Source: Lytechinus pictus (taxonomy: Eukaryota). Taken from it: a stretch of DNA of 64,000 nt. The notes beneath the pieces are model-generated. The model ran no database searches and was not told the origin of the DNA. It saw nothing but the letters and a program-made list of their open reading frames with translations. The stretch spans positions 10,294,001 to 10,358,000 of the forward strand of contig NC_087251.1 in assembly GCF_037042905.1 (NCBI RefSeq), read 5' to 3'. The position numbers and the translations under genes were made by a program. Shown in pieces: positions 13,995 through 35,849 of this stretch (positions are counted from its first letter, which is position 1; each line of letters opens with the position of its first letter).

Positions 13995-14946
13995 TTATTC
14001 TGATAAATCTTCATCTGAGCACAAAACTGTCTCTCTACAACCTTCAAGAAGTAATCTCCCGGTTGTCATGTCACATGATACCCCAGAATCCAAACTAGTT
14101 GGGCTAATGAGTACTTTGCCCTCAGCGAATCGTTTGAGAGCTATCAGAGATGGATACTTGTCAGCATCAAGGGAAAGGTCTGATGTATCAAAGGTGTCGC
14201 TGCGGTTGAATTCTTTAATCATATCATGGCGCTCTTCATCAGATATGCACAGGCAGGAGTCATTGCTACTTTCCACACTTTCACTGCTCTTGTCTTTGTT
14301 TGATTCATTGTTGAATAGTCGAAAGCCACCAGGATGAGGGCATTCTAAATTAAGCTCTGCCAAAATTGGATTCTCTCTATTATTGTGCATGTTTTCTAAT
14401 GATCCAGTGATTCCTGAGTAGGGATTTGTATCATGTTGTGTTTCCTGTATTTGAATGGCACTATGGGTAATCTGATCATCAGTCTTGGGGTGTCCTGCAT
14501 AATAAGCTCTATTGTCCACACTGCGTCCGAATGGAAAGAAGTCCTGTGGGATCCAGGATGGTGGAATTTGTTTCTGGTGATTCAGACTGGTCAGACTCAA
14601 ACTCACAGGCATCATACGTTTGCATGGACTAACCAAACTAAGATTCTGGGTGCTTCGGCTCTGTAGTGCCACTCCTGTTGGGATCTTCAGCATGGGCGTG
14701 GCTAAGAGGCTATCTTGTACCGTATCCTCATTGGCTGCTTCCAACATTGGGCTCTCTTCTACGTTTAAATCCTCGCTATCATCATCAGAGCTTGAATCTT
14801 CATAGCAGTAGCATTGCTGTTTCTCAGCATCAAACTCCATATAACAGACATTTTCTTCCATCATTTCTTCAAGTTTATTGCGAAGCTCTGTGAAACCTGG
14901 CCTGAGTTCAGGGTCATCGCACCAAGTCGCCTCCATTAGACTGAAT
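13995..14946 (-). CDS. RTK terminal exon: subdomain XI ([18 protein letters not shown]) + ~290-aa acidic Ser-rich tail
   Basis: Contains ORF 13995..14936 (313 aa); cacactag acceptor, phase 2; stop TAA at 13995. Confidence 0.92.
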
Positions 14947-17900
14947 CTAGTGTGGTATGAAGTATATGTATAGAGCAGAACATGAGATTATTAAAGCAAA
15001 ACTTTCTGAACACAATTTTCAAAAATTTCAATCCAAGCCCTTCATATGCATCTATAAAACAAGCAAGACAAGATCTAGGCAGTAACAAAAATCTTTGCAA
15101 ATGATTGCACAATTAATTGTTTACGGATTCGATTGTTCACTTTATGTATTTAATTGTGCACACTACTCACATGATCAATTATATTGTTTCTGTATTACAG
15201 GGCCCTTCCATTCAAAATTCTGCTTTAAAATATTTACACATTACATTCAAAATGGCACAATTCTGCAAGGAAAAAACTTCCATGGGAGTTCACATCGACT
15301 TTTTAAGAAATATGTAGTTACATCATAAAATAATGAGATTTATGATAAAAATTGTAAATTTTCTGCAACCTCTCGTAATACCAAGACTGAAATAGAATGT
15401 CTTACATTTGTGGAGAGCAGTTTTCAGGTTTCTCCATGCGGTAGCCTCCTTTCAGAAGTTTTGGCATGTCTTTATTTGAGATGCCTGGATATGGTGCAGC
15501 ACCAAGTGTCACAATCTCAAACAACACAACTCCATAGGACCATCTGGATTGGAAGAAAATGAATTTATATAACTCTTATCTCATATTTATGAATATTGTT
15601 TCTTTATTATCAAACAAAACAATTATATAAGTAAAGGCCATTTGCTCTATTAGGAACCCTTATAAATGTCTTGAGCCACTTTTGGCCATGTCTTAATGAC
15701 GAACCCACTCAGTTTTGTTTCCCTTCTACTCCTCCCATTTCAGCAGAGAAAATGTGGGAGTAAGAAGGGCATATATGCTTAACAGAATTCCTGGTGAAAG
15801 ACTTAAACATAAGTGGCTACGATTTTAAGGCAGACACATTATAATCATGACATGAAAACAAATTACTTCAAGGATGTTTTGATATGCTCATTTTTAAATC
15901 AAGGGTTAGGTTGTGATGGAATAATTTTGGATGAACTTAAAGTACCAACAATTTTTCATTAAGCACAAACTGTGTGTGTAATTTGAGAATTTGATATATC
16001 TGCAATCATACTATATACAATGAAAACTTAGATGCTTTTCATTTTCTCTATCTAATTCATCACATTACTTCTCTAATACTTCAAATGACTTACACATATC
16101 CCTTTGTAGTAAAGATCTGATCAAAGATAGCTTCAAGTGCCTTAAAATAACTTACACATCTCCCTTTGTAGTAAAGATCTGATCATAGATAGCTTCAAGT
16201 GCCTTAAAATAACTTACACATCTCCCTTTGTAGTAAAGATCTGATCATAGATAGCTTCAAGTCCCTTAAAATAACTTACACATCTCCCTTTGTAGTAAAG
16301 ATCTGATCATAGATAGCCTCTAGTGACATCCACTTTACAGGAAGCTTCCCTCCTCGACGATTGACGTAGACCTTGTCATCGTAAACATACCGTGTTAGAC
16401 CAAAATCACCAATCTTGACGTTTTTATCATCTGCTACCATCACATTTCTAGCAGCCAGATCACGATGAACGAAACCTTTCTGAGATATATATTCCTAGAG
16501 GAAAACAAATTCAAAATCAGAAATTGTTTTGCACAAAAATAATTTAAAGAGAAAGACATAAAATGATACTTTCAAAAGAAAACCTAACCTTCCAAATGAT
16601 CTCCAGACTACGGAATCAAGGAAATTTATCATATCTTTTCATCTAAGTAATCTATTCACTCACAAAAGCATGCTATTTGAAAGATCATCTACGCTTCTTT
16701 CCTAAGTGTATGGAATTTGAGTTTTTATAACTTTCTGTAAGTATGCTGTCATCATGTATATAGATATGGAAAATGGATAGAAATAACAGAGGTTTTAAGA
16801 TGTTCTTAAATTGCTGGATCTATTGAAATTTGAATTAAATCTTACCATTCCCATAGCAATCTGTCTGGCAAATGAAAGCAAATCCAGAGGCCTGAGTGTG
16901 TCTTTACAAGGAGTACGAGGAGCTCTACCCGTCTTAAATTGGTCAAACATCTGGAATCAAAATGAAGGGTACAAAATGAAAAACATTTACACTGAAGTAA
17001 TTCAATTAACAATGATTAGTGTCTTTTAAGTGTTTGGAGGTTTTGAAATCAGAGCGGAATACTTCCATTGTGCAAGTTAAACATTTGTATTAAATATATA
17101 AGGTTAGTTGGGTTGATTCTATAAAAAGACAGGATGGGAAATATAATTCACATTCCTTGGAATATTCTTACATTTCTTAGATTATTGAGGACAATCATTT
17201 CCTTTAAAAAGTAGATTCATGAAATACAACACATCAATAAAATTTATTATTACTTTTTTTCTCAATTATTCTTTATTAGTAGAAATTATGAAAAGATACT
17301 TGAAAAAAAGAGACTTATATTAAACTTCCAAGACTCATTTATCAAACTTCCTTAATATCTTTTTAAAAAAATCACAAAATTTCCTTATCTTGGGTTATTT
17401 ATTAAGAATGGTGTCTTTACCCATATTGTGGATACGTTCACTTGTGAAATGTGTATCATGGGTTTCAAATTTTGCCATTATTACTTTTAAATTGAGTTTG
17501 AATGCTTCAGCAGCACATCTGTATCTAGACTGAATCTCAAAACTTGTATTCCACTCTCAACGCTGCCAGCCCTGCATGTTGAAAGATCTCAACTAATGAA
17601 ATGAACATGGAATAGAGGCGAGGAGTAGCCCTTTTAACCCACTGACTACTGTCTTTTGTAATTCTCTCATTTCTTGGAGAGAAACTACATAGTTCCAGAA
17701 TGAACTGGGTTAATTGTAATTTCACAGAATCACATTCAATGCTTTACATGGTCAGAGAATGAGGAACACTTCATCTCACCTGTGGACGTCTATTCCTGAG
17801 GAAATGTAATAGGTCTCCATAATAGCAGTGCTCCACCAGGAGACATATAGGATCCTGGATAGTACAACATCCCAAGAGACTCACTACATTAGGGTGGTAG

Positions 17901-20900
17901 CCTAGCTCCTTCATTAGCTCTATCTCGCGTAAGAACTCCTGCTTTTGGGTGTCTTCTGCAAACTCTGTAAGATACAAGATTTTTAGATTCTTATGGAACT
18001 CTCCAAGAAGTAAAGACACTAAACTGTACTTTTGTTGAACAATGTGAACCAAACAACAAATCTTTTATTCAATCAAAAGAGGAGTAGAGGGTCTTTATGT
18101 TACAAGGCAACATGTCAAAGTTGATCATTGTTATCATTCAAACTTCAAATCAGATTCATCCTCCATATTAGATACACATAGACATATCTGTACATGAAAT
18201 TATCAAATTCTCTGGTTTGGACTTCAGAAATAAAGGAATGAAGGAATTTCAGTATACTTGTCTCCATATTAGTTATACTTCTTTTACACCTGTTTGTTCA
18301 TTTTCAACTTGATTTTTGCAATCAATAAAGCTTACTGGTACTTTAAAGGAATTCTGGTGTAATTGCATGTTTCATTTATTTTCACATGACTTTTGAGGAC
18401 ACTCCATACATTGTAAAATTTGTAAATTAGGTTTTAACAAGTTTACAGTTGTGCTCAAAAGTTAGTGAACCCCACCACAAAATGCACTCCTTCATGTCAA
18501 GTGTTGAATGTAGACAACAATATTACAATGTTTGGTAAGCCCAGAAAACAAACATTATTGAGAGTAATCTTTTTATCGCCTGACTTCGCAATTGAATATC
18601 TTTAACATAGTAGAACTTGAACATTTTATATTTGTTCATTTTCTGGTGGGGTTCACTAACTTCTGAGCACCACTGTATATCCAGTTTAGATGCGAACCCC
18701 CCACCGCTTATCTCTAAGTATGTATATACAGGGTGTTTCTAAAAAAAGGTAACCAAAGTTCAAAGGTCAGCTATATCAAGAATACATATCAAATTCTTGT
18801 GATTTCTATTCTGCATAACTGAGTAACTTTCCTGCATCACAATTGTCACGAGATACAGAGTTATATGGTCCGTTTTTTTTAGAAACACCCTGTATATACT
18901 CCCCTATGGAGGCTCACTATGTAACATCTTGACAGCAACCACAGTATGTTCGCCGTGGGTTGCTTCCCTTGGTACGATAGCAGATAGGGATGATTGGTGA
19001 CTCCAGATACGCCCGACCACCAGGCCCTTCAACACCTGACCAAAGGCACCCTCACCCAGAACATCTCCTACTTTGATACGTGCAGGGCTGATCTCCCAGC
19101 GGTCCATCACATCAGGTTTGACTTGAGACCTGGAGGATGGCAAACAGAGGAAGATTTGTTATCTAGTGTCAAAGTTCAAGAAAACTCTAGCATCTCCTGT
19201 ATCATCTGCTGAGAGTTGGAAAGGTGGTTACTTTTAAGATACTTAGAATTGGAAGTATTTTATATCATAAATAAAAATGAAATCAGTCAAATTGCTTCTT
19301 AAACTTTAAAGTAGTTGGCTGCTGTAAACATGGTTGTGTGATTTATTTTGGTAACTGTAAAAACAATATATAGCATTAAATGCATGAACCTTATAACTAC
19401 CATTGCTAACATTGGTAAATAAAATTGCATATACATACAATTTTTACTTTCAATTGAAAAAAAAATGTCTTCCATCAAAATGAGACGGTTTAAAGTTCAT
19501 ATGCATTATTTGTGTTTGCTTCAAGCATTGAATTATAACACTACTCTATTCACGAGATCGAAATATTTTTGTTAAAAGCCGTTGTCAATCTTAAAGATAC
19601 ACCTATTTTTATCATGTAAATAAAATTACTACAGACCTCTACAATTACTTCTTAGGAGTCACAAAAACTTAGTTTATGTATCCTTGTAGAGTTTGGAAAT
19701 TTAAAGCTATGCTCTAATATGTATATAATTAATTGTATGTTGAAAGAGAGAATTGAGTTAAAATTGATCCTGTTCTTGCAGATTAAAGAAAATTGATTAA
19801 CTTACGTGCTAAGTAAAGCCGGGTATGAAGGTGAGGAGTATATATTAGGTATACTCTCTTCATCTCGTGATAGATTAGCCTTGGATATACTCCTCTGTCT
19901 CCGGTATGCACAGGTCCCACAGCAGATCAGGAAAACCACAATAAGGACCAGGGCTAGCGGTCCAACGATGTACAGGCTTAGTTTATGAAAGGGAAGTCTT
20001 GTTGGGGGATATGGTATGGTCACAACGTAAGACCCCTCTGTGTTATGCACTCTTGTAGAAGACATTGTCGGCAAAACACCTGGATAAATACATTAAGTTT
20101 GCAGTATAATGACTTCAATCCTCATCAAATTGAAAAAAAAATCTACTTGTCTATAATAAAATTCTAGGAACAATTATTTTTGTTTACAGTTATATCATAA
20201 GATGAATTCCTCAACTGCACCAAGAACTGAATGCAACAGTTAAATCTGGGGTAATTTAAACAAAGCACCTTAGAATAGATTATATCTAGATAGATGGAGT
20301 TTACGTAAATGCTTATCACCATACATACATGTGCATATCTTATCATGACTGTTTTTCCTTCTTCCTCATTGCAGTTATTATAAAACGGAGAGAAAATTTG
20401 TTTACTTCAATATATTTATAATAACCAAACTGACAACACATACATTTTCTTACATTTATAATTTCGCACTTTGAGCAAAAGAGAAAAATTGTTATCCCAA
20501 TTTCAATAAACATATTTAGCAAGTTTCAGGTAAATTGTGTGATTAATGGGATCCTTACCTGTAGTGAATCGAATGTTAGGATGACTACCGATAGATCGAG
20601 CATCATGTTCATCCTCGTAGGTATAATAATAACCAATTATCTGAAAGACAAAAACAGATAACAAATGGCACAATATTTTACAAATAAAAATCATCACAAG
20701 TGAGCATTGATAGAGAAGTTAATGGCAGAATATCATATACAATCTAAATACGCTCTTATTAAAGAACGTTTTCCAGTTATGTTTTTGCGTATCCTTATCA
20801 GTACGTTTTATGCAATGGGAGTTGACGTCACAATGACAAAACAGCTGACTGATCAGCTGATATTTTTGTGGTCTGTATAAATAACTGCCACTTTGAATTG

Positions 20901-23900
20901 TTAGAATATGAAGCTGATAAGTGGAAATGATTGTATGGGCCACCATCTTCAATGTCATCATGTATAAAATACTTCTCTTTGTTATTCTAGAAAGTATAAG
21001 GAATGCGACATGGATTTTAAATACATGGGTGGGTAATTTCCATTCATCTTTATCTAGATTTCAGGACTTCTGGGATGTTTTTGTGGATTGTTGAGCATGT
21101 TTTTCGACAATTAATGTGTGGAGTGTTAAAAAATGAGTAAATGGACCTCCATTATATCAATATTTTTAGCTCTTAATACATTCCTCTACAACATAATCTG
21201 ATAACAAGTGGAACGCCTCTGGCAGTCTCGCCTGCATTACGTGATTCGATATAGCAGCAGTGCTGACTTTGAAAACGGCTTTTGGATAATTGTTCACAAA
21301 AGAAAACATTCATGATAATATATACTATGTCCATTGAACCAAAATGACCTTTGACCATGATCATGTGATCTAAGATGTGTGCAAAACAATCATTTATACT
21401 CGATTACCCTTATGTCTATGTTTCATGAACTAGATCCATAACTTATAAAGTTATGATGCCAATTCAACAAATACCCCAAAAATGACCAAAGTTCATTGAC
21501 CCTAAATGACCTTTGACCTTGGTCATGTGACCTGAAACTCACTCAGGATGTTCAGTGATACTTGATTACTCTTATGTCCAAGTTTTATGAACTAGATCCA
21601 TGAACTTTTAAAGTTATGATGGTAATGCAACAAATACCTTTAACATGCCCAAAGTACATTGACCGTAGATTACCTTTGACCTTGGTCATGTGACTTGAAA
21701 CTTGGGCAGGATGTTCAGTAATACTTCATTATCTTTATGTGTAAGTTTCATGATCTAGGTCTATATACTTTCTAAAATTATGATGACATTTTAAGAACTT
21801 AACCTGAGGTTAAGATTTGATGTTGATGCCGCCGTCGAAAAAGCAGCGCCTATAGTCTCACTCTGCTATGCAGGCGAGACAAAAATGACATGGATTTTCA
21901 ATAGTTTTCACCATTCTTTGTATTTTTCAAAGTTTTGAATGAGATTTCTAAATCCAGGGGTATGTTTTAAAAATTGTTAGCATTACTTTTTGGACAAGAG
22001 AACTCTGCTAATTTACAAAGAATACATGGACACGAGTGAAAATGCTTTTCTCATCTTGGGTATACATTACATTTCTAAAATAAGGTAGAAAACCCGAAGA
22101 AATCTGCGTGGGTTTTTACGGTAAAAAAAGGGATTTTAAACTCAATGTTGTGATCCTTTGAGGTTTAACGGGGGCAAATCTCTTGATTCTGCCATTCTGC
22201 CAGGCCCTCAAGAATCCATAGATAAAAATTAGCACATAAACATATATTCTTTTGCATGTTTGGCTTATAAAGGTTCTGTGCAAAGTCTGGGGAAAATGAC
22301 ATATCATTTTACCCGGGGAACATCCGTAAGTGTTATCAAAGGAGTGTTATTAAAAGTTTCAGATCAAATATGCATTCCTATTTACTGGGTGAAAGTCAGA
22401 AATTGTATATAAAACATATTATCAAATTGATTCTTATTTGATGGGTTGAAAGAGTTTGCATAAAATTCAATATAAAATCTAAAAAAATTGTTCAATAACA
22501 ATCATTAGAAAAAGCATTAGCAATCTTTGCCATTTCAAATTGCATGGATATTTTTTTCTCAATGCTAATATGTGCTGAAAGGATAACAAATAATAAAACC
22601 CTTAAAATGACAAAACCCAAATGGCAAAAACAATCGTATTCCAAGTGAATTAGCAAAATTATTATGGCTAAACTTATTAATGGACAATACAAATGATACT
22701 AATAAGAATAATAAAAGCAGATCAAAATGAGCTTACACTGTCCCAAAGAATAAGTGAATAGTGGATTATGCAACATTCATACAATGATGATCCAATCAAT
22801 TCAAATATCACATCAATGGGTCCTTACCTCAAGGCCATACTCTGTTTCTGGTTTGAGGTCTGTCATTCTAAACACTGTTGCATTCTGCATGTGATAGATA
22901 TGAAGAAAAAAAAAACCTTGTTGCTCTATAAATTTGATAATATTCATCGTACAGTACCACATTCGTTACTGTTATCCAATTCACAGCAAAATTTAGAAAA
23001 AATTATATTCTATAATCCCTTTCAGTTAACATTAAAAAGAAATAATTTGATATTGAAGGGTAAAGGACACAAAAATAGAATGAGAATTAATAATTGCACA
23101 TCACAATGTACAAGATACAAGGAGCTACACAGATGTTGAAACTTAGATTTATTCACAAATATGTACATAAATGAGGTCTAGAGTTGCACATTGATATCAT
23201 TTTCATAATAGCAGTTGACATAATTCCCCAAAACATACCCTTAACCTGCTTACAGTGAGAAATGTGAACTCAAAGAAACAATCCAATATATACTAGTAAT
23301 GAATGTGAATATTAATCAATAAACTTTGGCAAACTAGATATCAGCCACTCAATTTACCCAACTTAAATAAAATGAAACAATAAAAATAGAAAATGAAGTG
23401 AATGAACTTGAACCTACGGCTAGTATTTTCACAGTTTTCTTGGTGTTTTGAAGGTAGAATAAGAAAGACCCCAACTTTTCAATTTCTCCATAGTAAAGAT
23501 AATAGTATTTTAGACCATGATGAAAGTCTGGAAGGGATGACCATTTGATATCAGCATGAAAAAACCCATCAGAAGACAAGCTGGCTACTTCTGTAACATT
23601 GATGGCTGACAATCGCTTCTTCACTACACCTGTTGTAAAAAAAACAAAAAAACTATTTGTTTAAAGTAATGACCACAACTGGTTGTTAGGTATCAGAGTT
23701 TGAATATCATTTTGACAAGGTCTCATGACTGAGGTCAGTCGCAGACCGTGACCCGGAGGAGACAAACCATTGTTCACAAACAATACAGTGCCCCTCCAAT
23801 CATTGTCTCATCCGGGTCACGGTCCGCCACTGACTGAGTTTATTCATTTTCCACACAGGCAAGGTCTGAGACGAGACAAGCACTGACAAGGCCTTTTTTA

Positions 23901-26900
23901 TTCTGGCAGAGACATGAAGGAATCTATTATTCATGAGCATACCCAGGCACCAATCCGCACTGTAGATACTGATGACGTCATGCAACTGGTGTATGTTTGA
24001 TTCTGTGTTGCAGGGTTCATTAATGCAGTTCAATGATGCAGTTGTTGATTGACTTCCACCTCTCAGTTAGCAGATTCAAGCAAGGATCAATGGTCAACAT
24101 AAGAAATGCATGCCAGTTTCCTAAAGGCTCCGTAGATGGTGCGTTCACCTGGGTTTGACAGATTAGTTTTTTATAATAGTCGCTCTGTTTCTGACAAAAA
24201 TGTCACATCAGACATGGGACCTTGTCTAAAGGGTAGAGTTTGAATTGTTTCTTGCACTTCGCTCTATAAAGAAGTCTTGGTTGTGATGACAGTTATACCT
24301 CCGGTCCAAGTCTACTTGTTCGTTCTGTAACCTTTTTGTGGCAGCGGTGGGATAAATCCATTGGGGTTGGACTGTGCAAACAAAACTTATACATTTACAT
24401 GGCAATTAAACTAATGAAGATGTTTTTTATATAACTTTTAACATTCTTCAATCTACTTATACCTATACACAGAATTGATAGGAATATAAATATATAATAT
24501 ACATATATTTCTAAGGGGTGACCCGTTAACCCAAAACCCACAAATAAGTTGCTAGTGAAGATTTTCTGTAAAGAGCCAAAATAGAAATTTGGTCTTCAAA
24601 AAGTAAACATCAGATAACTAGCATATTTGAAGCAGTAATTCTTCTTCACACTATCAAACTTGAAGTTGTCAAATTAAATAAGTTTCTTTGACACCATTTT
24701 TCCAGAGTGCTTGGATATTTCACCAAGATTGCATGTTATGCACATGAACCCTGAATTTCAAACCTCATTCTTTGACGCGCTCTGTCATTTTTTCTATATT
24801 TAATCAAGTACTTGAATGTGACATTGTTGATCAAGTTTAAGTTACGTATCATGGTAAAATTGAGGATATGCTTTTTAAGCTAAATACAAATATCAAAATT
24901 CACTTAAGGCTACTTATTAATGGATGTGGGGTCGCAGGCTGCATATATCCTCTCTTTGTTTGAACAAACACATCATTAATATGCTTTGTTTACTTACGGA
25001 GCTCTTTTCTTTTGAGGACATTCTTTAAAAAATGGGTGGTTTTTATTGTTTCTAGACAGCCATGAGTTCCATAGAGCTAGGAAAAATAGAAAATGATTTT
25101 ATCATAGTAAAAATAATTACTTACAAATGATATCAAATATGCTAATAGAAAATGATTTTATCATAGTAAAAATAATAACTTACAAATGATATCAAATATG
25201 CTAATAGAGAAAAATTGGAGTTAACAACAATTTCTTATTACTCCACAGTACATAGCAAAATAAGGATTAAATGATATCAACAAATCTTTAACAAAAACAT
25301 TGAGAGATAGAGAGAGTAAGAAAGAGAGACAGAAAGGAAAAGAAATGGAACAGATTGGGGAATTAATGTTTCAAAGAAAAATTATACTCAACAATTTGGA
25401 TAGGCTATGCCAGGGAGTCACATATAGTATCGAAGAATAAAATACTCAGAGAACAAAACAAGTATCAATTTAAATTGAAAGAAAACTAGCCTTCATTTGG
25501 ATTGAGCCAAATTCTTCTTTAAGGTGCTTAAGATGAGAAATGGTGTATGCTTTGTTTCTTCAATAATTCAATTGCTTTCTATCTAATGGCATTACTACTT
25601 ACTTAGTACAGACATTAATAACACTGTGGACACACCAAAATGGGCTTTTGACTCTTTGGCCTACACGCCAGGGGCTGTTAATGCCTCTCAAAGTGTCATA
25701 AAACTACAATTTATTACTTGGATTCAGGACATACAGAGCAAATGTGGTCAAGTAGTGATTCTTTAAAGTGAAATACATTTGTAGAAAAGTTAACGAGATA
25801 AAGGACTTGAGAGTTTGTGGAAAAGGGATGCTTTATCTTTCTAATTATATGTATATGCATTTTGTTGAATATGCCAGGCAAAAAGAATCTTTTCTTTTTA
25901 CTCTTAAAGATGATTTAAGTACTTGAATCCACCTCTATTTAAAAAAGAAATGTTGAAATTGCTATATTTCAGAAAATATATTGTTATATGAGTATTCTTG
26001 TATATGCATATCTTAATTGAATCAAATGATCAGTAATGGTAACACATTTAACTAAGAGATGAAACAATCAGTTATGATATGGAACCATACAATATCTTAC
26101 AGAATATCACTGATTTTTTCTCGGGGTATAAAATTTGAAGGAGACAATATACCTTTTTAAGGGAACAGATATGACATGAAAAATGAACATTGAAATTTGA
26201 AATGAGGATGATTTTTTACTTTCTTATTACCTGAAATGTTAGATTATCCTCCGTACTGTTGATGGGAACAGTGAGAGATACACTGGTTACATTTACCTTC
26301 ACAAAATAAAACCAAAAATATAGTAACAATTTTTAATACTTGTTTTCTTTGAAAAAAAAAATTCATTGATAAATACAAAGGAAAAGAAAATATCAAAGCC
26401 AGTCTATAAATGGACAGTTTGATATAGTTGAAAGGCAAAATACATATAAGTATTTCAGTAAAAGAAATCACAGAAAGTTCATATCTTTGACATATAAACT
26501 TGGGTAGCAGAAAAATACACAGACAGGAGTAGATATTGTTAGAGTAGTGGCATCATTATCTGCATGAAAACATAGGTTGAAGCATTAGAGTCCTTTTATT
26601 TTGTAAGAAAATGATATAAATTTCCAATTCCTTTTATGAGGAACTACAACAGCTGGATTCTTGGCTACTTACTCATGATAATTCAAGCTATTTTATCAGT
26701 TAGGTAAGAAATATATAAAGACTACTCCAACCTCCCAAAATATGAATATAACAAACATGACATGCATGTAAAATTCAACTGTAATGCAAGTAACCCTTGT
26801 CATCAATTACTCTGTCTTTATAAAGTGGGTGTCACAAGAAACTATTGTGATAAAATTATAGAGTAAAAAAAATAAAAATCTACCAATGAAGGTATTGTCT

Positions 26901-29900
26901 TGTAACATATATTCTATATTTATTTGGTTAAGTTCAAGTTGATCCATTAGTTGCAAATATGTAATTGATTGCAATAGATTAAAAACTGATTTCTGACGAC
27001 CCCCCCCCCCCAACCAATGCTTTCATGAAACGTTATTTAAAAAAAATGGAAAATGAAAAATCACCTTAATCTCATAATCATGGTGATGGTGTGAAGAGCC
27101 TGATAACCCTTTGTTGAAACTAAATAATGCAGTATAAGATGTAATAGCATCCTCCCAACCTGAAACAAAGGGAAGAGTTCAGAAATACATGTATACAAGA
27201 AGGCTCACAAGTGTTTTAAAAATTATTAATTAAATTAAATATACCATTCTGCTTTCAAAGATAAATGATTTCATATATCATAAACAGAATTACCCATGGT
27301 AAACAAGGGTTTCTTGACTTTAAAGAGACTTTGCCAATATGCCCATTTTTGTTAAATTTCACTTTGCCACTGAAACAGTATTCCTATCTGAATTCATTAT
27401 AATGGTGTCTCTGAGAGGAAAATAAGAAATTGATTTCAAATAATCATTTCCAGTGCATATTTTCAAACTAATTTACATTTACAAGTCATAAGCTTCTATG
27501 TTACTTACATCATCAATACCAAGTGTTTGATTGCCATCTCATAAAACTTTAATTAATCCTGTATTACTGAAATTAAAATATACACATTTGAGAAGTGTAC
27601 CTTTGTATCTAACCTACATGACATGTGAAATGAGAATATCATTACTATCACATTTCTCTAATGTTGTAAGTTAAACATCAAAATGGGTGATAACCAGCAC
27701 CAATAACCAATAAATAAATCATAACATGACAAAAAATATCAGAGAAATATTAAAGAAAGGAATTTTAATAATGTCAATGAAAACAATATTGCAAGAAAGG
27801 AAATAGAAGTTTACCTGGTGGATCTTGCCAAGAAAAAGTGATGGTTGCATTATCTTCATTATGATCAACATTGTGTACCAATGTAAACCTTTCCACAGAT
27901 GGTAGTATTTGAGTCCCTGAGTGTACAAAACAAGCATCAACAGTTTAATTATACAAGCTAATCATGTAATAAAATGAGCCTATTTCGATCTCAGTATAAT
28001 ATTTTGTCATGTGATGATGATGATGCCCAAGCAGAGAGATAACTGAGGTTTTTTTTCTATGTGGGGGATATTTTCTTCTGCTTTCCTTCATTCTTACTTA
28101 TACTTTGCACCAGTTTTAATGTAGGGGATATCTTTATTTCACATGTTTAAGGCAAATTGCCTTCATGTGTATTTCTCCACGTGATTAAAAATATCAAAGA
28201 AAATTAACATTATCACTCTTTCATATCACTGAACTCTAATCAATCTGAAGAAGCTTTTTGTGTATCACTTTGATCATACCTACACTACGAAAAGTGAGAC
28301 ATAAATATGGTCCTTCTGAAAATTGAAAAATAAAATAAATAGCATAGTCAACAAAATATAATGGACTTCATTATTTGGTATTCTAAAACTAAGGGACATT
28401 TCTTTTACTTACTTGAAGGAGTAAAACTATTACTATAACTGCTCACTCCATGCAGACTGACTTCCACCACACTATATGTATCCCCACATATATAATCTTG
28501 TGTTAGGGTGTACGATATCTCCTTGATCTATAATAAAACAAAGAGGAGAGAGGAGGAATATTAATGAAATATCAACTCCATAAAAAAAATTGTTTACCAC
28601 AGATGGCGGACACTATTCAAAGAATTAAAAAATATGGAACCCCTCCCCCCAAAAATAATTAAAACCTAAAAAGCCTAAATAATAAGGAATAGTGATTATC
28701 TCCTCTTTCTTCATCACATTTCTCTGTTTGAACTACATGAAATACTCGTCCTAGATATAGTTGCGATAATTTTTCATATCAAACTTCTTCTGACAGAAAA
28801 TTATTCATTATTCCTCTTGAATAAACGTGTTTCTTTACATGCTATAAATGAAAATAAACAAACAAATAACAACAGACAAACTGACAGATAATCTATGATA
28901 ACTTCTTTGTAAAGAATAAATTATATACATCATAAAATTGATGAAAGTGGTAATACCATTAGTACGAGATGCCATACTGTGGAGTCATCAAATGGGCTCT
29001 TTTCAAGAATGTATACAGAACTGTTGTTTTCAGAATCTGTTGTCCACTGTAAGGTTATCTGACCTGGCATAGGTGCATCCGCAGAAAGCTCCGGTTTATG
29101 ATCTGGATATATTTAAAAAAAAAAAAAACACCAAAACCTCAGAACATAAAAATTTGTGTTAAATGTTACATTAACATTACTGTTGTCAAGCAAGGTGTTT
29201 CATTCTGCCTTTAAAATTTTGAGAATGGTGTTACTATTGTCCCTCTTCTTCGACACATGACATCTTCCATCCTTTTACATTAATAAGATAAAATAATATA
29301 GGATGTTAATATCTAATAAGTTATTGTAAGTTATCATTTTAGTGAGTATTAACAAACTAGAATTTATTTACATGATGAGGCTGATGAAAATGGAAATTAC
29401 AAATTATATTAAACATTTTTATCGACAATGAACTTAAATATGAGAGTACCGGTATACGTTTTTTTTAAACTTAGTTTTATTCTATTCATAAGCACAAAGG
29501 GTCTTGTTTGATAAGATTTAAATACACATGGCATCTACCTCCCGAAAGATTTTATTTATTTTACTGTGATGAATTAACTTACCAATGAAGTTGGCACACG
29601 GCGTCTCACAATCTAACTGAAAAACAGAAAGTAAAATGATAAAATCAGAGAATAGGTTTATTAAAAAAAGCAGGGTACATTGAGAGAAAGAGGGAGATAT
29701 GGAGAGGAGAGAAAGAGGGAGATATGGAGAGGAGAGAAAGAGGGAGATATGGAGAGGAGAGAAAGAGGGAGATATGGAGAGAAGGAGAGAAAGAGAAAAT
29801 GAGAGGAGAATGAAGCAAAACATGAACAGTATATTTCAGATTATGTCACAATATTTCTGACAACCCTGGGCCCCATTTATGAAAATTCAATTAATGACAA

Positions 29901-31937
29901 TTTATTAATTAATGTATATAAGCTTCCACAATTATAGTATTATTTGACTGCACTGGATCAAATTTGTCATCAGGTTGTAGTATTTGTGACTCTAACATCT
30001 TCATGAAAGAGAGTTTCGCTATCTTTATGAGATATGAATATATTGGTAATCAATAAGAAAACTGTCAATATATCCTACTTCAGGACATATTACAATATTT
30101 TCAATATTTGTACCTGTATTCAATATCAGTGTTTGGTATCCTCTAGCCCCCTTAGGTACTGCTATCAATATCAGTCAAAACATCCATAATTAATCTAGTT
30201 CATACCATTTTTTTTCTCTCAGAAAGAATATGACAATGCTTTCACTTGGAAATATTAATGGTGATTAACATTGATGGAAGAAAAAAATTAAAGAATTATT
30301 TAGAAGTAAAGATAAAGAGACAGAGTCGGATATATAAACAGAGAAGCCAGAGGGAAAGAGAGGGAGAAGAAGAGAGAGAAGGGGGGTGAAGAGAAAAATT
30401 TGTGTACCTTTTATGAGATTCTATCAAATTTTTATGAATTCAAAATATATTTGTACATCAAAAGTACTTTGATTTCTTATTTTTCCAAGAAAACTCTTCA
30501 TAAAAACAATCTTAATCAATATTATACGGCAAAGATATTAATTTCAGGATGCTAGCTTTTAATTCCACCACAAATGATTATTTTCTAACATCTAGTAGAT
30601 AGGTAATTTAAATGTTTGCACTTAAGTGATAGCATTAACATGGATAATAATAACTCTCTCAATGCAGAACACATCTTTTCTCAATGAAACATACTATTCT
30701 CCCAAAATATCTTTGACAGTCTGAACAAAGTTTTCAAACTGATGTAACCTGTAATTCTTTATCAGGGGAATAAATGTTGATGTTATTTGGTTTTACAGCA
30801 CTGTCATTCAAATACGAAAAAAAATTGTATTTCTATGCTACTTCTCTTTATTCCAATAAGTATCTATATTGAAACCAGTGTCAACAAGGGTTAACACCAA
30901 GGGCTTATATTTGTTACAGTTTTGGAGAATGACCATGAAAGGAGCAATAATAGAGCCTTCCCATTCTAAGCCACATAATAGTTCCATTGCCATCTAACTT
31001 GATTTACTAAATTGTGATTATGCATGAATAAATTTCCCCTAAAATACGATGTGTCATATGATCCCTGATAAAGAACCATGTGACTTTTATATTCAATAAA
31101 AAAAGCCATGGATAATATTTTTTTATATAGCATCTCAACTCTAGATTAAAATAAGATAATGGTAAAGAAAATAAATAGGACATGACAATGAATGATCATG
31201 GTATCCACTCTAGAATGTGTATGCTTCCTTACTTGGGACAGATGGGTCAAATGGTATACAAAACAAGAACCCCTATCGTCAAACACCCCCGGTCATATAC
31301 ACCTACACAAATATTATTATATCCTATACAGCAAACCAAGAATCATGGAAATACCACCATCCACAGAAAATGCAATACTCTGTGGAACATTTTTTTTTGC
31401 TTCTCTCCTCCACAGGTGGAAAGGGATGAATGAGATGATGACGAATCACTTCTACCTTGTCAGGGTTGAGTGATCGTCACAGTTTAGAAGCGTTTGACGG
31501 CGATTACCATTAAAGGCTAATCTAAAACACAATCTCCAGCCATGCTTGACGTCTGTTATTTCAATCGAATACATCCACCTATGACTGCATGAATAAAAGA
31601 TCAACTGTAATTTGTTTGACGATCTGGATGACATGATGTCCTGAGGAAAACAATCATCTGCTTGCAATGATTACCCTACTCACTTAATCTCACACCAAGT
31701 TCCCACAAAAAAGAACCACAGAAATTCCTTCGATAACATTTACATTGTGGGTAAGTATAACAAATAGCAGAAAACCTTGGTCGAATTAATTTATAAACAC
31801 AGAATTGGTTCAACCTGATGGTTAAAGATTTTGGCAAATGGAGCAAATAATTGCATGATAAATGTAATTGAATAAAACAGCCAACTTACACAACCAGAGA
31901 AATTGCTGCATTCCAATTGACAATCATCCCATGATCC
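13995..31937 (-). CDS. Receptor tyrosine kinase, Torso-like architecture (Cys-rich + 3 FN3-like + TM + tyrosine kinase + long tail); 18 exons, 5'-incomplete
   Basis: Exons 31890-31937, 29583-29616, 28957-29102, 28413-28527, 27815-27916, 27065-27159, 26231-26296, 24998-25076, 23418-23629, 22828-22884, 20559-20640, 19806-20079, 18918-19129, 17780-17964, 16846-16950, 16280-16494, 15406-15543, 13995-14946. All are GT-AG, phases are concordant, and the sum is 3117 nt. Motifs [33 protein letters not shown]. No signal peptide exon found. Confidence 0.92.
15406..15543 (-). CDS. RTK kinase exon, subdomains IX-X ([46 protein letters not shown])
   Basis: 138 nt, phase 2/2; WSYGV..EI.TLG..PYP and GYRMEKP motifs. 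Confidence 0.95.
16079..16326 (-). repeat. 4 x 62-bp tandem repeat spanning the kinase exon 3' end and its splice donor
   Basis: cttac (GTAAG on minus) at 16089, 16151, 16213, 16275. Confidence 0.95.
16280..16494 (-). CDS. RTK kinase exon, subdomains VIb-IX ([20 protein letters not shown]...[45 protein letters not shown])
   Basis: [17 protein letters not shown]; 215 nt, phase 0/2; not in the ORF track, translated by hand. Confidence 0.95.
16846..16950 (-). CDS. RTK kinase exon, short insert + subdomain VIa ([35 protein letters not shown])
   Basis: [13 protein letters not shown] motif; 105 nt, phase 0/0. Confidence 0.93.
17780..17964 (-). CDS. RTK kinase exon, subdomains III-V ([26 protein letters not shown]...[13 protein letters not shown])
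   Basis: alphaC Glu, HPNVV, GDL motifs; 185 nt, phase 1/0. Confidence 0.95.
18446..18675. mobile_element. Tc1-like MITE
   Basis: ta|cagttgtgctcaaaagttagtgaaccccacca ... tggtggggttcactaacttctgagcaccactg|ta. Confidence 0.88.
18729..18892. mobile_element. Mariner-like MITE
   Basis: ta|cagggtgtttctaaaaaaa ... tttttttagaaacaccctg|ta. Confidence 0.85.
18918..19129 (-). CDS. RTK kinase exon, subdomains I-II ([24 protein letters not shown]...VAVKMLH)
   Basis: Gly-rich loop and catalytic Lys; 212 nt, phase 2/1. Confidence 0.95.
19806..20079 (-). CDS. RTK exon, stalk + transmembrane helix ([24 protein letters not shown]) + basic stop-transfer RRQR
   Basis: ~24-aa hydrophobic stretch followed by RRQR; 274 nt, phase 1/2. 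Confidence 0.9.
20559..20640 (-). CDS. RTK exon, end of FN3 domain 3 ([28 protein letters not shown])
   Basis: tgtctttcag acceptor, CAG|gtaagg donor, 82 nt, phase 0/1. Confidence 0.85.
21203..21882 (+). mobile_element. DINE-1/HINE-like element, copy 2 (fewer internal subrepeats)
   Basis: Same termini and subterminal IR as 758-1776. Confidence 0.75.
22828..22884 (-). CDS. RTK exon, FN3 domain 3 ([19 protein letters not shown])
   Basis: Classic FN3 L-x-P-x-T-x-Y motif; gcag acceptor, GAG|gtaagg donor, 57 nt, phase 0/0. Confidence 0.88.
23418..23629 (-). CDS. RTK exon, FN3-like domain 3, N-terminal part (..[32 protein letters not shown])
   Basis: caacag acceptor, GCC|gtaggt donor, 212 nt, phase 1/0; overlaps ORF 23349..23624. 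Confidence 0.82.
23736..23832. mobile_element. 97-bp hAT-like MITE with 8-bp TSD
   Basis: 30-bp TIR cagtcgcagaccgtgacccggaggagacaa; TSD actgaggt/actgagtt. Confidence 0.8.
24998..25076 (-). CDS. RTK exon, end of FN3-like domain 2 ([26 protein letters not shown])
   Basis: tttttcctag acceptor, C|gtaagt donor, 79 nt, phase 0/1. Confidence 0.72.
25085..25208. repeat. 59-bp tandem duplication abutting an exon acceptor
   Basis: Units start at 25085 and 25144, with a partial unit at 25203. Confidence 0.9.
26231..26296 (-). CDS. RTK exon, FN3-like domain 2 ([22 protein letters not shown])
   Basis: ttttgtgaag acceptor, CAG|gtaata donor, 66 nt, phase 0/0; N-glycosylation sequons. Confidence 0.72.
27065..27159 (-). 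CDS. RTK exon, FN3-like domain 2 ([31 protein letters not shown])
   Basis: tttgtttcag acceptor, AAG|gtgatt donor, 95 nt, phase 1/0; I..Y strand-C motif. Confidence 0.78.
27815..27916 (-). CDS. RTK exon, FN3-like domain 2 start ([34 protein letters not shown])
   Basis: cactcag acceptor, CAG|gtaaac donor, 102 nt, phase 1/1; ITFSW..P strand-B motif. Confidence 0.82.
28413..28527 (-). CDS. RTK exon, FN3-like domain 1, C-terminal half ([38 protein letters not shown])
   Basis: ttttattatag acceptor, gtaagt donor, 115 nt, phase 0/1; YSV...G.S..S pattern. Confidence 0.8.
28957..29102 (-). CDS. RTK exon, FN3-like domain 1, N-terminal half ([34 protein letters not shown]...WHLVLM)
   Basis: atccag acceptor, ATG|gtatta donor, 146 nt, phase 1/0; FN3-type ITLQW...VYIL pattern. 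Confidence 0.8.
29583..29616 (-). CDS. RTK exon, Cys-rich: [11 protein letters not shown](D)
   Basis: tttctgtttttcag acceptor, G|gtaagt donor, 34 nt, phase 0/1. Confidence 0.8.
29682..29781. repeat. 4 x 25-bp purine-rich minisatellite (gagagaaagagggagatatggagag)
   Basis: Units at 29682, 29707, 29732, 29757. Confidence 0.9.
31890..31937 (-). CDS. RTK exon (most 5' found), Cys-rich: [16 protein letters not shown]
   Basis: ttttgtacag acceptor, TGT|gtaagt donor, 48 nt, phase 0/0. Confidence 0.75.
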
Positions 31938-32301
31938 CTGTACAAAATACAAAGAAAGGAAGAAAAAAATATATAAAGAAAGGATGTGAAAAACACAATA
32001 AAATTAATAAAATCTGTCAATGAATATGAAATCTCTCATTAAATAAGATAGAAAATGATTTTAACAATATTTATATCAAAATTCAAATACACCATATTCT
32101 TATCCTTTTTATATTCTCAATATTTTTAACAATTCCTAATCAATATTTCAAAATATCAAAGAGAAATGAAATCTTTTGTAGGTTTCACAAAAAGTGACTA
32201 TGATAAGTAATCACATTTACAGATAAAACATCCTTCATTGTTTCTTTAAACAAATGGTAAAAAGAATGATTCATCCAAACTTTCACACCTATACTGGTTA
32301 A

Positions 32302-32990
32302 AGGTTAAAGAGAAATTCCAGTAGTTGCAGTACACACTGATTTCATGAGAAAGTCTGTAAAACCAGGCTTAATTGTCAGTATATCATCGAGGATCTAGAT
32401 CTGGTACAGTTACATAAACTGAACTTTGTGAAATCTTGAAATCTACGCTGAAAAATGTTCAGACTGAACTTCCCCAACACAGATAAGCGCACGTGGGACA
32501 GTGTATAATTATTGCTTTGAGCGTCGGGCCCGACGCTCTACCCGAATCCTGTGCTTATTTGCTGATTTCTCAGCAATTACACAATTTCTTCCAGAATCCT
32601 TTGGCACATGCGTTTTATTTATACAAACAGACACTTTGGTGGTCATTTCATTGGATTCTGTACGAACTCATTTTGATATCGTTACCAAAACTAGCATTTA
32701 CCTTTAAGTCCACCCCAGCAAACTGTTGATTTGAATAAATAGAGAAAAAACTAGAATAACGCTGAAAATTTCATCAAATTCGGTTGTAAAATAAGAAAGT
32801 TATGGCACTTTTAAAGTTTTGCTTATACCAACCAGGATGTGCATATAAATGTTTTGTGAAATTAAGCGAAACTTTAAAATGCCATAACTTTCTTATTTTA
32901 CATCCGATTTTGATGAAATTTTCAATGCTGTGCTTGTTGGATTTTTCTCTTTTTATTCAAATCAATTTTTTGTTGGGGTGGACTTGTCCT
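32302..32990. mobile_element. Kolobok-like TTAA MITE (outer), interrupted in its left TIR
   Basis: ttaa|agg[ttaa]gtccacccca ... tggggtggacttgtcct|ttaa; palindromic interior 32708-32990. Confidence 0.8.
32309..32703. mobile_element. Kolobok-like TTAA MITE (inner)
   Basis: ttaa|agagaaattccagt ... actagcatttacct|ttaa. Confidence 0.8.
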
Positions 32991-35849
32991 TTAAGGATGT
33001 CATTAACAAGCACTGCCATTCATGACAAACGCTGTTTCTCACTATCAAACCATTTAATGCAAGAAAGATTACTGTAAAGGAGGGGGCGGGGTAGGGGACC
33101 AGAAGTCTGCACATTAAGATGATGTTTATCTAACAATCTCTGATAAAGTCATTCACTAACTTCGCTGTTTACTCAGTTTTCCTATTGAATTACTTCCTGC
33201 TCCCATTGCATATTTTACATGATGCCGCATCTAAATTTAGATTTTCTTCTTCTTTCCCAAAGCTTGCTCACTTCAAAGGACTGCTTGGTGAAGAGAGGGA
33301 CCCCCAAAGGTTAATTATTAATACTATTCAATGTCGACTCTTGCATCTAATCAAACCTCGTGGGATGTGAGTTACCATGGCAAACAGTCCTAGTTTATTA
33401 AACATGTGGGGTGGAGAGTAAAAGCATCTTTATCGGTAGCTAAAAGAGACAGACAGCTCTTAGTAAGCAGTTAACATTCATCAATGGAAAGCATCAATTG
33501 GACCACAGGTGCCAATTTGATAACCAGTTGTTTGATCAGGGATTTTCTATTCAAAACCTTCAAATTAATTATGCTATCCCTAATAAGTCCATGGATGATT
33601 GCAACATGTTAATGACAGTAAATATGAGATTTGAACAAAAATGCTGTCTATTCAAATCTGAAAATATAAAACGAGGGTGACTTGATATGTTTTGCATCGT
33701 ACACCTAATGATTTACTTTATCACAGAAAACTTATGGTTGCTATACAAGAACCAATCGTTCATATTTTTTTTAAAGACTGGCTCAGATTTATTTTTCCAT
33801 GCAAGGTTGATATGAAAAAGATTTAAAGACATGATATTATTGGTCTTTAAAAAATTCAACCCCATACCAATAGGTCATATCATTTTGAAATAACAAAAGT
33901 AGAAAAAACAATGAAATATAAACAAGTTTAACAAGGACTAATCATTGGATGAATATTGTTTGAAAATACTGGCCAAGAATTTTCATGTTTACAATTCTTT
34001 CCATATAATATAGAAAAATATCTTTTTTTTTCAAACTACATGAATAACTGATATGTTTTTACGACTCCAAGTTTTAAAAAGGTGCGTTTTCTGTAGATTG
34101 TAATATGTTAACCTGAAACTCAAATTTCCTGCCACTGTGCTAGCAGGCGTCACTATAACATGTATCAGAATTACAAAGTGATTATTGCTCATGGACACAA
34201 AGAATACATAAAGAACATGACACAAAAAAAGAAAAAAAGTCAAAGGACTGGAAATAATGCCTTCAAGTGTTTAGGCCATCAACTTTCTTGTGAAACTTCT
34301 CTCTTTTCTTAAAGGTACATAATCGAATTTCAAATTTGATATCTTGATTAGATTAGATTTTCCTAACCTACCTTAAGTTGTTCTGTAACCCGGATCACTT
34401 AACATGATAATTTCAGAGTGTTTTGTCTCCTGTTTGAAAAGACCTGATTCAGGTGGGTGTTTTGTAAAGCTGCATGTATGTTACTCACAGCTTAAAATCA
34501 CAACCGGGGACCTGCTCTTTTGTCAAATAATATCACCCAAATCTTTCCTGTTTTAACATAATAGGATTAAATTTATACCACCCTAATCAAAGTTGGATAA
34601 ATAACTTATACCGTTTTAAAACAAGAATTTTAATAAACAAAGATGGGATTAGCAGGCGAATCAAAATGACTTAGACTGTGATTCAGCCCCCCCCCCCCAA
34701 AAAAAAAAAAAATTCTTGCTTAAAGTCATTTTTGAATAATGAAAAGCTTTATGAAACACCAACCATATGTCACGGATGAGGAAAACTTTTTAAGTCTTAG
34801 ATATGTACATATTAATTTAACTTGCATACCATATACTGCACATGTGTACACATTTTTATAATTGGCTGAGTAAATATTTGAGAAAAAAATTATAGCCTAA
34901 GCTTCAACAATGAATTCAAATCCAAGATCAAATTTCTAATCTTGTCCACTATAACAGTTCAATGCACTTTATTCAGATTATTTGCCATCACAACACTCCC
35001 TAAAACATTTCCACCAATTAATTCCCGTTTAACTCTTGTGTACTGTATTCATTAAAATTCCAATGAATATTTTGATGTACCTATGCAATGAGTCAGGGTT
35101 CAAATCAAATTTTACATCTTTCATTCTATTTCCCATAATTTAAGTTGTGAATACTGCATTCATTCATATTTCAATGAATATTTTGTTTTGAGCGATTCAG
35201 TAATAGATCATCTAACATTCATTCAGAGTTTTTATTAATACTTATTTCTTCTGTGTTGAAAATTTCAGGGATTGGTTATAATCCGTTTTAAAGAACCATT
35301 GCAATAAAACACACATACAAGCATTTTATTTCGTCACACAAATGATCTCTTGGAAGGTGAGATAATGAATAACACAATAATCATAGGTATAAAATATTGT
35401 TGATGTCTCTTGTGAGATGCATGGTCTGCAGATAGCAAGACACGATGCCTGCTAGCTGGAAGAGGAGCCTGTCATCATTTTTTGTTTTCATATGATGGTT
35501 TGAATCCTATGCGGCTTAACTTGCTAATCATGATTCGTGTCAAAGCGAACAGTTATGATGGGATATTTTGTTTCACTCTATCTGTCTCTGTCTGGCATCT
35601 TACTAATTCCTCTTTCAGAGTCTTGAAATGTTTTTAGCGTACAACGCATGAATGTACGACACCTTTTTTTCATATCAGAATGTTTTTCCTAGGATGTTTC
35701 GAAATAAAGGTTATTTGTATGTAATGATGGCTAGACCATCATTCAAGTCCCAACTGAAAAGTTATTTGTTCCTCTCCTATTAACAACCTGTTGTGTTCAG
35801 GGGAAATAAAATTTCATTTCAATTATTGCTCATGTGTATATGTATTTTT

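What the first reader, a model, noticed from the sequence alone, without database searches (positions are those of the whole stretch)
13995..31937. Torso-like receptor tyrosine kinase in an apparent non-arthropod (probably echinoderm) genome
Seen: 18 phase-consistent exons give a Cys-rich module ([24 protein letters not shown]), three FN3-like domains, a TM helix and an intact kinase with activation segment [27 protein letters not shown] and C-lobe FSLMEATW. Established: insect Torso, the Trunk/PTTH receptor, has a small Cys-containing N-terminal domain plus FN3 domains, whereas FGFR has Ig domains and a YY activation loop and RET has cadherin repeats. None of those alternative features is present here. 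Inference: this is a Torso-family receptor, which would imply a Trunk/PTTH-like cystine-knot ligand pathway that is little characterised in deuterostomes. Caveats: the kinase insert is only ~20 aa, unlike the long split kinase of Drosophila Torso, and an automated pipeline could label it FGFR/RET/Cad96Ca-like.
Basis: partly seen in the sequence, partly recalled or inferred. Interest (0 to 1): 0.72.

Follow-up and report, generated by a model that had tools for sequence, protein, structure and literature searches.

The report
Sea urchin paralog of Torso receptor
This is a real, spliced sea-urchin gene for a cell-surface receptor kinase related to insect Torso, but it sits in an older sister branch rather than being Torso itself, and its ligand is unknown.

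Summary
The gene is real: 18 GT-AG exons (31937-13995, minus strand), 1038 aa open, 97% identical to Lytechinus variegatus LOC121419171. I found the missing first coding exon 39 kb upstream, outside the window (signal peptide, S/T/P linker, half of an 8-Cys box); full length 1227 aa. Models give a helical Cys box, three FN3 domains and a TM helix; the kinase motifs are intact. A Torso-like kinase in echinoderms is already in print: de Oliveira 2019 lists the sea-star and brittle-star counterparts as torso. My trees split the superfamily into clade A (this gene; cnidarians to amphioxus, support 99-100), clade B, Nork and arthropod Torso. Torso ectodomains match B, not A (profile score 213 vs 59; B>A for 6 of 6 Torso rows), and strict orthology to Torso is rejected on ectodomain plus kinase (AU p=0.0013) but not on the kinase alone (p=0.07). 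No clade-B gene or trunk ligand turned up in this genome (weak negative). So it is built like Torso and is probably a paralog with an unknown ligand.

The parts
31938..64000 (-). Window part of the 39.4-kb first coding intron. The first coding exon lies beyond the window's end (G000:C7:10365312-10365878, in L031): aa 1-189, signal peptide, S/T/P- and acid-rich linker, first three Cys of the Cys box (CKAFCIVNC)
   Evidence: tblastn of P0002 1-205, E 5.6e-40; GT donor in phase 0 joins exon 31937 in frame; junction inferred, not seen in reads
31890..31937 (-). Exon: Cys box ([16 protein letters not shown]), aa 190-205
29583..29616 (-). Exon: end of Cys box ([10 protein letters not shown]), aa 206-216
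   Evidence: 34-nt flank in contig X1/1
28957..29102 (-). Exon: FN3-1, first part
   Evidence: exact ends in contig X1/1, stranded reads in X21
28413..28527 (-). Exon: FN3-1, second part
27815..27916 (-). Exon: FN3-2
27065..27159 (-). Exon: FN3-2
26231..26296 (-). Exon: FN3-2
   Evidence: length sum
24998..25076 (-). Exon: end of FN3-2
   Evidence: covered by contig X3
23418..23629 (-). Exon: FN3-3
22828..22884 (-). Exon: FN3-3
20559..20640 (-). Exon: end of FN3-3
19806..20079 (-). Exon: stalk, TM helix (from about aa 570), juxtamembrane PNIY
18918..19129 (-). Exon: kinase N-lobe (GEGAFG, VAVK)
17780..17964 (-). Exon: kinase alphaC to hinge
   Evidence: PF07714 E 5e-14
16846..16950 (-). Exon: kinase insert and alphaE
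16280..16494 (-). Exon: [11 protein letters not shown] and activation segment
   Evidence: PF07714 E 8e-26
15406..15543 (-). Exon: kinase C-lobe
13995..14946 (-). Last exon: end of kinase, about 290-aa tail with tyrosines conserved in three urchins, stop codon
   Evidence: words held by 20 of 23 listed runs

Best explanation
An active single-pass receptor tyrosine kinase of a Torso-related superfamily (Cys box + 3 FN3 + TM + kinase). It belongs to an old paralogous branch (clade A) that split from the branch most like arthropod Torso (clade B) before cnidarians and bilaterians parted. SHOWN: gene structure, domain order, intact catalytic motifs, membership of clade A. INFERRED from family knowledge: a dimeric secreted ligand, most likely a cystine-knot protein of the trunk/PTTH/IL-17 kind, cross-links two ectodomains at the Cys box and first FN3 domains. 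The kinases then trans-phosphorylate the activation loop (YVYDDKVY) and docking tyrosines (juxtamembrane PNIY, post-kinase YMEF, tail), which recruit PTB/SH2 adaptors and drive Ras-ERK. The ligand is not identified.
For: Clade A support: kinase 100/99, ectodomain 99/97, combined 100/99, mixture model 99. The window ectodomain scores 59.0 bits on a clade-A profile built without echinoderms, 2.8 on the Torso profile and 0.6 on B. With depth-matched profiles, B beat A in 10 of 10 draws for each of 6 Torso rows and in 0 of 10 for the window protein. hhalign: Torso-B 213 (E 1e-28), Torso-A 59 (E 6e-7), echinoid-Torso 24 (not significant), A-B 152; the A-B alignment runs from the Cys box through all three FN3. 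Torso+B is 96/84 in the ectodomain tree. AU rejects bilaterian A + Torso (p=0.0013) and does not reject bilaterian B + Torso (p=0.33). Amphioxus and Owenia each have both an A and a B gene, acorn worms have both (A in Saccoglossus, B in Ptychodera), and both clades hold cnidarians. Oyster has four trunk/PTTH precursors of two types (PMC8398477), room for several receptors.
Against: The kinase alone does not place Torso: A+Torso p=0.30, B+Torso p=0.097, bilaterian A+Torso p=0.07. Whole A + Torso is also not rejected on the ectodomain (p=0.29), and the combined trees leave A, B and Torso as an open fork. Clade-A ectodomains evolve faster, which lowers profile scores. Drosophila and Bombyx Torso were not in the trees; only 1 of 7 Torso rows carries the name. 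No trunk-like ligand was found in the genome, so the ligand class is an extrapolation.
Confidence: 0.62

Rival explanations
1. Same paralog status, but the ligand is not a cystine-knot protein. The Cys box and FN3 arm work as in ROS1/Sevenless or anosmin-1, binding a matrix, NELL-type or membrane-bound partner.
For: The clade-A ectodomain profile hits the ROS1 N-terminus (profile 10-200, E 7e-8) and anosmin-1 (E 7e-16). The Patiria Cys box is modelled as four short helices, as described for the CATCH domain (PMC11743138 passages). No trunk was found in the genome. The urchin ectodomain is divergent (about 20% identity to non-echinoid clade-A members).
Against: Clade B, the closer match to a proven cystine-knot receptor, hits anosmin-1 even better (E 2e-27), so that resemblance says little about the ligand. 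Clade-A and B ectodomains are collinear homologs.
Confidence: 0.18
2. It is the urchin ortholog or co-ortholog of arthropod Torso and binds a trunk protein that has not been found.
For: Same architecture. Published torso set holds PMI_028651, whose fragment matches P0007, a clade-A member. A+Torso is not rejected. No arthropod row was identified in clade A of my sample, so Torso could fill that gap. Chen 2024 lists nematode proteins as TORSO and Trichinella/Trichuris proteins as TRUNK.
Against: AU p=0.0013 for bilaterian A + Torso and p=0.0001 for deuterostome A + Torso on the ectodomain. The motif [FY]xTxxC[LYF]x5-10C ending FN3-2 is in 7 of 10 B and 2 of 4 Torso rows and 0 of 21 A rows. Pfam Torso domains do not hit P0001-P0003, though they also miss clade B.
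Confidence: 0.17
3. An FGFR/RET/Cad96Ca-like or lineage-specific kinase that acquired FN3 domains independently.
For: Best single-kinase solved-structure matches are FGFR3 and RET. Automatic names of clade-A members include Ret-like, VEGFR3-like, FGFR3, Cad96Ca-like and insulin-like receptor.
Against: Split from RET/FGFR/Cad96Ca 100/97. A+FGFR p=0.003, A+RET p=0.044. One copy found in the genome, with counterparts from cnidarians to amphioxus. The urchin's FGFR- and RET-type activation loops lie at other loci (L004, L060; labels by recalled motif).
Confidence: 0.03

Closest known systems
Echinoderm and amphioxus 'torso' sequences of de Oliveira et al. 2019 (PMC6660194, Fig. 2 source data: Patiria PMI_028651, Ophionereis Ofas11611, Branchiostoma Brafl1_237501)
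   Same: Same clade: the PMI_028651 fragment matches P0007 and the Brafl1_237501 fragment matches P0012; same DFGLTR[YF]xYxDxxYxxxxGGxLPxKWM loop
   Different: Those entries are kinase fragments pooled with clade-B molluscan and Nematostella sequences and insect Torso under one label; no sea urchin name was found in the file; ectodomains were not compared in the passages I read
Arthropod Torso (Trunk/PTTH receptor; Bombyx ectodomain PDB 5AOQ; P0164 Papilio torso)
   Same: Cys-containing N-terminus, three FN3, TM, related kinase; one superfamily against RET/FGFR/Cad96Ca
   Different: Ectodomain far closer to clade B; urchin protein lacks the FN3-2 end motif, has a full 8-Cys box, a 145-aa S/T/P linker, a 26-aa kinase insert and a 290-aa tail
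Clade B Torso-like receptors (amphioxus XP_019635843 'torso-like', Ptychodera, Owenia, molluscs, Nematostella LOC5521403)
   Same: Collinear ectodomain (hhalign P 99%, 352 columns)
   Different: Different Cys pattern in FN3-2, different activation loop, NPxY in 6 of 10 against N-x-Y in deuterostome clade A; none found in this genome
Nork (neurite outgrowth regulated kinase; name from the Elysia record)
   Same: Same ectodomain plan (A-Nork score 110)
   Different: Separate clade (100/100); named members are all spiralians
Anosmin-1 (PDB 1ZLG) and the ROS1/Sevenless N-terminal CATCH-FN3 arm
   Same: Cys-rich helical box followed by FN3 domains; profile hits
   Different: Anosmin-1 is secreted, has a WAP domain (recalled) and no kinase; ROS1 has propellers and many more FN3. 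For clade A the Cys-box part of the anosmin match is weak

Membership tests
Torso (ortholog of arthropod Torso) | Type I membrane protein with intact tyrosine kinase | tested here: met
   signal peptide, TM, PF07714 291 bits on P0001, GEGAFG/VAVK/HRD/DFG
Torso (ortholog of arthropod Torso) | Ectodomain of a small Cys module plus FN3 domains only | tested here: met
   AF2 models: four-helix Cys box in the Patiria ortholog, three beta-sandwiches in both; top fold matches are FN3 arrays; an extra S/T/P linker precedes the box
Torso (ortholog of arthropod Torso) | Forms one clade with arthropod Torso to the exclusion of paralogs | tested here: not met
   AU p=0.0013 on ectodomain+kinase; kinase alone p=0.07; looser whole-A+Torso not rejected
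Torso (ortholog of arthropod Torso) | Ectodomain sequence closest to Torso's | tested here: not met
   2.8 bits on the Torso profile vs 43-100 for clade-B rows
Torso (ortholog of arthropod Torso) | Fold match specifically to Torso 5AOQ | tested here: inconclusive
   5AOQ is not among the rows shown; generic FN3 chains fill the lists
Torso (ortholog of arthropod Torso) | A trunk/PTTH ligand in the same genome | tested here: inconclusive
   none found; no trunk query or positive control was available and introns defeat DNA patterns
Torso (ortholog of arthropod Torso) | Binds and is activated by trunk/PTTH | not testable with these tools
   needs an assay
Torso-related superfamily (A, B, Nork, Torso) | Kinase groups with Torso against RET, FGFR, Cad96Ca | tested here: met
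   100/97, 99/97, 94; outgroup limited to these three families
Torso-related superfamily (A, B, Nork, Torso) | Homologous Cys-box + 3 FN3 ectodomain | tested here: met
FGFR | Ig ectodomain and FGFR kinase clade | tested here: not met
   no Ig hit; AU p=0.003
RET / Cad96Ca | Cadherin ectodomain and RET kinase clade | tested here: not met
   no cadherin hit; AU p=0.044 for RET
Tie, ROS1, Wsck | Kinase clade membership | not tested
   no such rows were identified among the 150 best hits and no reference sequences were on hand

The most novel reading that the evidence does not exclude
Clade A is an unnamed receptor-kinase family older than bilaterians, kept in cnidarians, spiralians, a tardigrade, nematodes, echinoderms, acorn worms and amphioxus, and pooled with Torso in print. 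In this urchin it is the only survivor of the superfamily and has outlived both the Torso-type receptor and trunk. It would then be an orphan with a different ligand, possibly one of the genome's IL-17-type cystine knots (15 domain matches), which would tie IL-17 to a tyrosine kinase in a deuterostome.
Probability: 0.3. Interest if true: 0.65.

Novelty: new member of a known kind. Interest (0 to 1): 0.4.

Why it matters
The claim that trunk-Torso signalling exists in deuterostomes rests partly on clade-A kinase fragments. If these are paralogs, presence tables for 'torso' mix at least two receptors, and echinoderms may hold the receptor without the ligand. The full 19-exon model (the RefSeq relative P0001 lacks the signal peptide and Cys box) makes a clean ligand test possible in a tractable embryo. 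The resemblance of the ectodomain to anosmin-1 and to the ROS1 CATCH-FN3 arm suggests a shared origin; a search for 'anosmin' with 'torso' found one unrelated paper.

Tried and rejected
Exon candidates 28315-28280, 25703-25603 and 24371-24296 were dropped: absent from P0001 and not needed for the 457-nt contig spacing. The joints table was filled by repeats, so no splice joint is listed directly; no listed holder of the last exon is on record as RNA. No signal-peptide exon in 32000-64000. PDB 9P9U, the top hit, is a tandem EGFR kinase construct. A search with the P0082 ectodomain gave only one more row. The Atlas gave generic FN3 clusters. Fold searches did not list 5AOQ and barely tested the Cys box; phmmer with the Patiria Cys box + FN3-1 found no PDB hit. 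Clade B in this genome: 39 of 356 candidates scored, 150 of 232, 7 of 7 for the ectodomain (one titin-like hit). I read the kinase motifs at 30 + 2 + 9 fetched loci and none had the clade-B loop; at least six matched places were not read. Trunk patterns: 0 matches, 18 vs 25 in the control (not followed), 5 vs 19 (read by eye, four with a stop, one without the Cys). The Noggin model found one full-length match only; Spaetzle none over cut-off. Five weak IL-17 matches showed no trunk motif. Published torso trees were cut in the supplement text, so their support values are unseen. Jenni 2015 is not held. No complex prediction was sent: no candidate ligand had a reasonable prior. Searches for a printed A/B split found nothing.
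Full report
Observation. The quoted motifs are on the minus strand at the stated places. Eighteen exons from 31937 to 13995 give one open frame of 1038 aa with AG/GT at 17 of 17 introns. One FN3 exon found P0001, Lytechinus variegatus LOC121419171, and the spliced product is 97.3% identical to it. The genome is 811.7 Mb in 368 contigs, so this is a Lytechinus sea urchin; L. pictus is likely (inference, also named in scan note e1-7787175). Of 23 listed runs, 20 hold words of the last exon. Four runs were laid on 20400-40399: two contigs match the exon lengths exactly (115+146+34 nt; 457 nt for five exons), and raw RNA reads cover bin 28404-29070 at depth 1.2 with first mates on the + strand only, which fits a weakly expressed minus-strand transcript. 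The two contig sets are guessed RNA, and repeats crowded splice joints out of the table.

Completing the gene. The window lacks the start. In the next 100 kb of the contig, the N-terminus of P0002 matched one exon at extended coordinates 71878-71312, that is G000:C7:10365878-10365312 (E 5.6e-40). It encodes a signal peptide, a linker with 38% S/T/P and 17% D/E, and CKAFCIVNC, and joins exon 31937 in phase 0 over a 39.4-kb intron. The protein is 1227 aa: 8-Cys box, three FN3, stalk, TM, kinase with intact [18 protein letters not shown] and DFG, 26-aa insert, and a tail whose tyrosines (YMEF, YYAG, YSG, YPxL) are kept in 3 of 3 urchin sequences. AF2 on the P0001 ectodomain (pLDDT 72, pTM 0.39) gives three beta-sandwiches and a TM helix. 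The Patiria ortholog (pLDDT 68) adds four short helices for the Cys box. Fold searches return mostly FN3 arrays; Torso 5AOQ is not among the rows shown, which is inconclusive.

What is in print. De Oliveira 2019 (PMC6660194; passages and supplement file 1, parts 1 and 102-104 plus searches) reports torso in deuterostomes and lists Patiria PMI_028651 and Ophionereis Ofas11611. PMI_028651 matches P0007 and Brafl1_237501 matches P0012 by eye. Its trees were cut in the text I could read. Its list of phyla with trunk names hemichordates and amphioxus but not echinoderms, and 'Echinodermata' does not occur in the file. Chen 2024 (PMC11087794; parts 1-2 of 6, passages, dataset) describes Torso as an FN3-only RTK and trunk as the closest relative of IL-17. 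None of its 22 TRUNK rows and none of the 26 of 31 TORSO rows I saw is an echinoderm. I read passages only of PMC8398477, PMC8557429, PMC8662651, PMC13100127 and PMC11743138. Jenni 2015 was not held, so details of ligand binding by Torso are recalled, apart from the statement that Torso is dimerised by a dimeric ligand.

Relatives. The best 150 of 153,265 hits plus the earlier proteins gave 152 sequences; 133 with one usable kinase went into a first tree, 19 were dropped. Thirty were looked up and 26 gave an organism. Four groups share the Cys-box + FN3 plan. Clade A: this gene, Diadema, Patiria, a crinoid, a sea cucumber, Saccoglossus, amphioxus, Owenia, Lineus, molluscs, Hypsibius, Bursaphelenchus, Sanderia, Stylophora, Actinia. 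Clade B: amphioxus 'torso-like', Ptychodera, two Owenia genes, molluscs, Nematostella. Nork: Elysia, Lingula, Tubulanus. Arthropod Torso: P0164, named torso, which hits Bombyx Torso 5AOQ at E 3.6e-29, and six rows without that name that join it at 100/99. Drosophila and Bombyx Torso, Tie, ROS, Wsck, PVR and InR were not in the trees. Among outgroups, P0083 has RET domains, P0113 is named Cad96Ca-like, and the FGFR rows are labelled by recalled motif.

Trees. Kinase (59 hand-picked rows, 295 columns): clade A 100/99; superfamily against RET/FGFR/Cad96Ca 100/97; A+B 88/82; Torso unplaced. Ectodomain (40 rows, 367 columns, extra FN3 trimmed in four rows): A 99/97, B+Torso 96/84, with long-branch warnings. 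Combined (48 rows, 667 columns): A 100/99, with A, B and Torso in an open fork; a mixture model agrees. AU tests: bilaterian A + Torso p=0.0013 and bilaterian B + Torso p=0.33 on the combined data; deuterostome A + Torso p=0.0001 on the ectodomain; A+FGFR p=0.003, A+RET p=0.044. Against my reading: whole A + Torso is not rejected (p=0.30 kinase; p=0.29 ectodomain), B+Torso scores worse than A+Torso on the kinase (p=0.097), and bilaterian A + Torso is only p=0.07 there. The groups were named after the first tree, which weakens the p-values.

Ectodomain profiles. The window ectodomain scores 59.0 bits on a clade-A profile without echinoderms, 2.8 on Torso and 0.6 on B; the six Torso rows score 16-98 on B and 0.3-12 on A. 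With ten random six-row profiles per clade, B beat A in 10 of 10 draws for each Torso row and in 0 of 10 for the window protein; the best shuffled score was 10. hhalign gives Torso-B 213, B-Nork 188, A-B 152, Torso-A 59 and echinoid-Torso 24. Faster change in clade A could lower its scores, but the tree tests point the same way. The B profile's top PDB hit is anosmin-1, with the Cys boxes aligned (E 2e-27; that profile included one Torso row). The A profile hits anosmin-1 mainly through FN3 domains, and the ROS1 N-terminus.

Genome context. One clade-A copy was found. Searches with clade-B kinases and an ectodomain found no clade-B gene, with many candidates unscored and at least six places unread. 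No trunk-like sequence was found; 15 IL-17 domains were. These negatives are weak: I had no trunk query and no positive control.

Mechanism. Shown: a complete, spliced, catalytically intact RTK of clade A. Inferred from Torso and related RTKs: dimerisation by a dimeric ligand, phosphorylation of the YVYDDKVY loop, docking at the juxtamembrane N-x-Y (6 of 6 deuterostome clade-A rows) and tail tyrosines, then Ras-ERK. A cystine-knot ligand is the most likely class because the homologous ectodomain of Torso binds one; this is untested.

Verdict. It is built like Torso and is probably not its ortholog. The headline of a Torso-like receptor in an echinoderm is already published; the split into paralogs, the complete gene model and the apparent lack of trunk are the additions. 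I found no printed A/B split, in a library that lacks most subscription papers. The scan's own notes held nothing on this gene. Interest 0.4.

Noticed in passing
window 16079-16325: Four tandem 62-nt copies (95% alike) of the 3' end of the activation-loop exon with its GT donor; donors at 16280, 16218, 16156, 16094. Use of a later donor would bring in a stop codon.
   Followed up: partly
window 31938-64000: The first coding intron is 39.4 kb; no long open frame with an obvious gene was seen in its part inside the window (not searched further).
   Followed up: partly
window 21203-21885, 32300-32995, 40100-40400: Interspersed repeats with very high depth in transcript-like runs; the 163-nt unit at 21396-21785 has a relative at 990-1421.
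   Followed up: no
P0069, P0094, P0080, P0066: Kinases of the clade-A region of the first tree carry other ectodomains: C-type lectin (P0069, P0094), EGF (P0080) by Pfam, and a non-FN3 ectodomain in P0066. Ectodomain swapping around this kinase.
   Followed up: no
P0002: The 1694-aa record holds the kinase twice and a broken Cys box; probably a gene-model or assembly artefact.
   Followed up: no
P0001: The RefSeq L. variegatus model starts inside FN3-1 and lacks the signal peptide and Cys box.
   Followed up: yes
L060 (G000:C18:25281150-25281520): Exon with a RET-type activation loop by recalled motif.
   Followed up: no
G000:C17 and C6: Fifteen IL-17 domain matches in clusters; one Noggin match at C10:29587141-29587752.
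   Followed up: partly
PDB 1ZLG vs alignment A5: Clade-B ectodomains align with anosmin-1 from the Cys-rich box through the FN3 domains, skipping the WAP region.
   Followed up: partly
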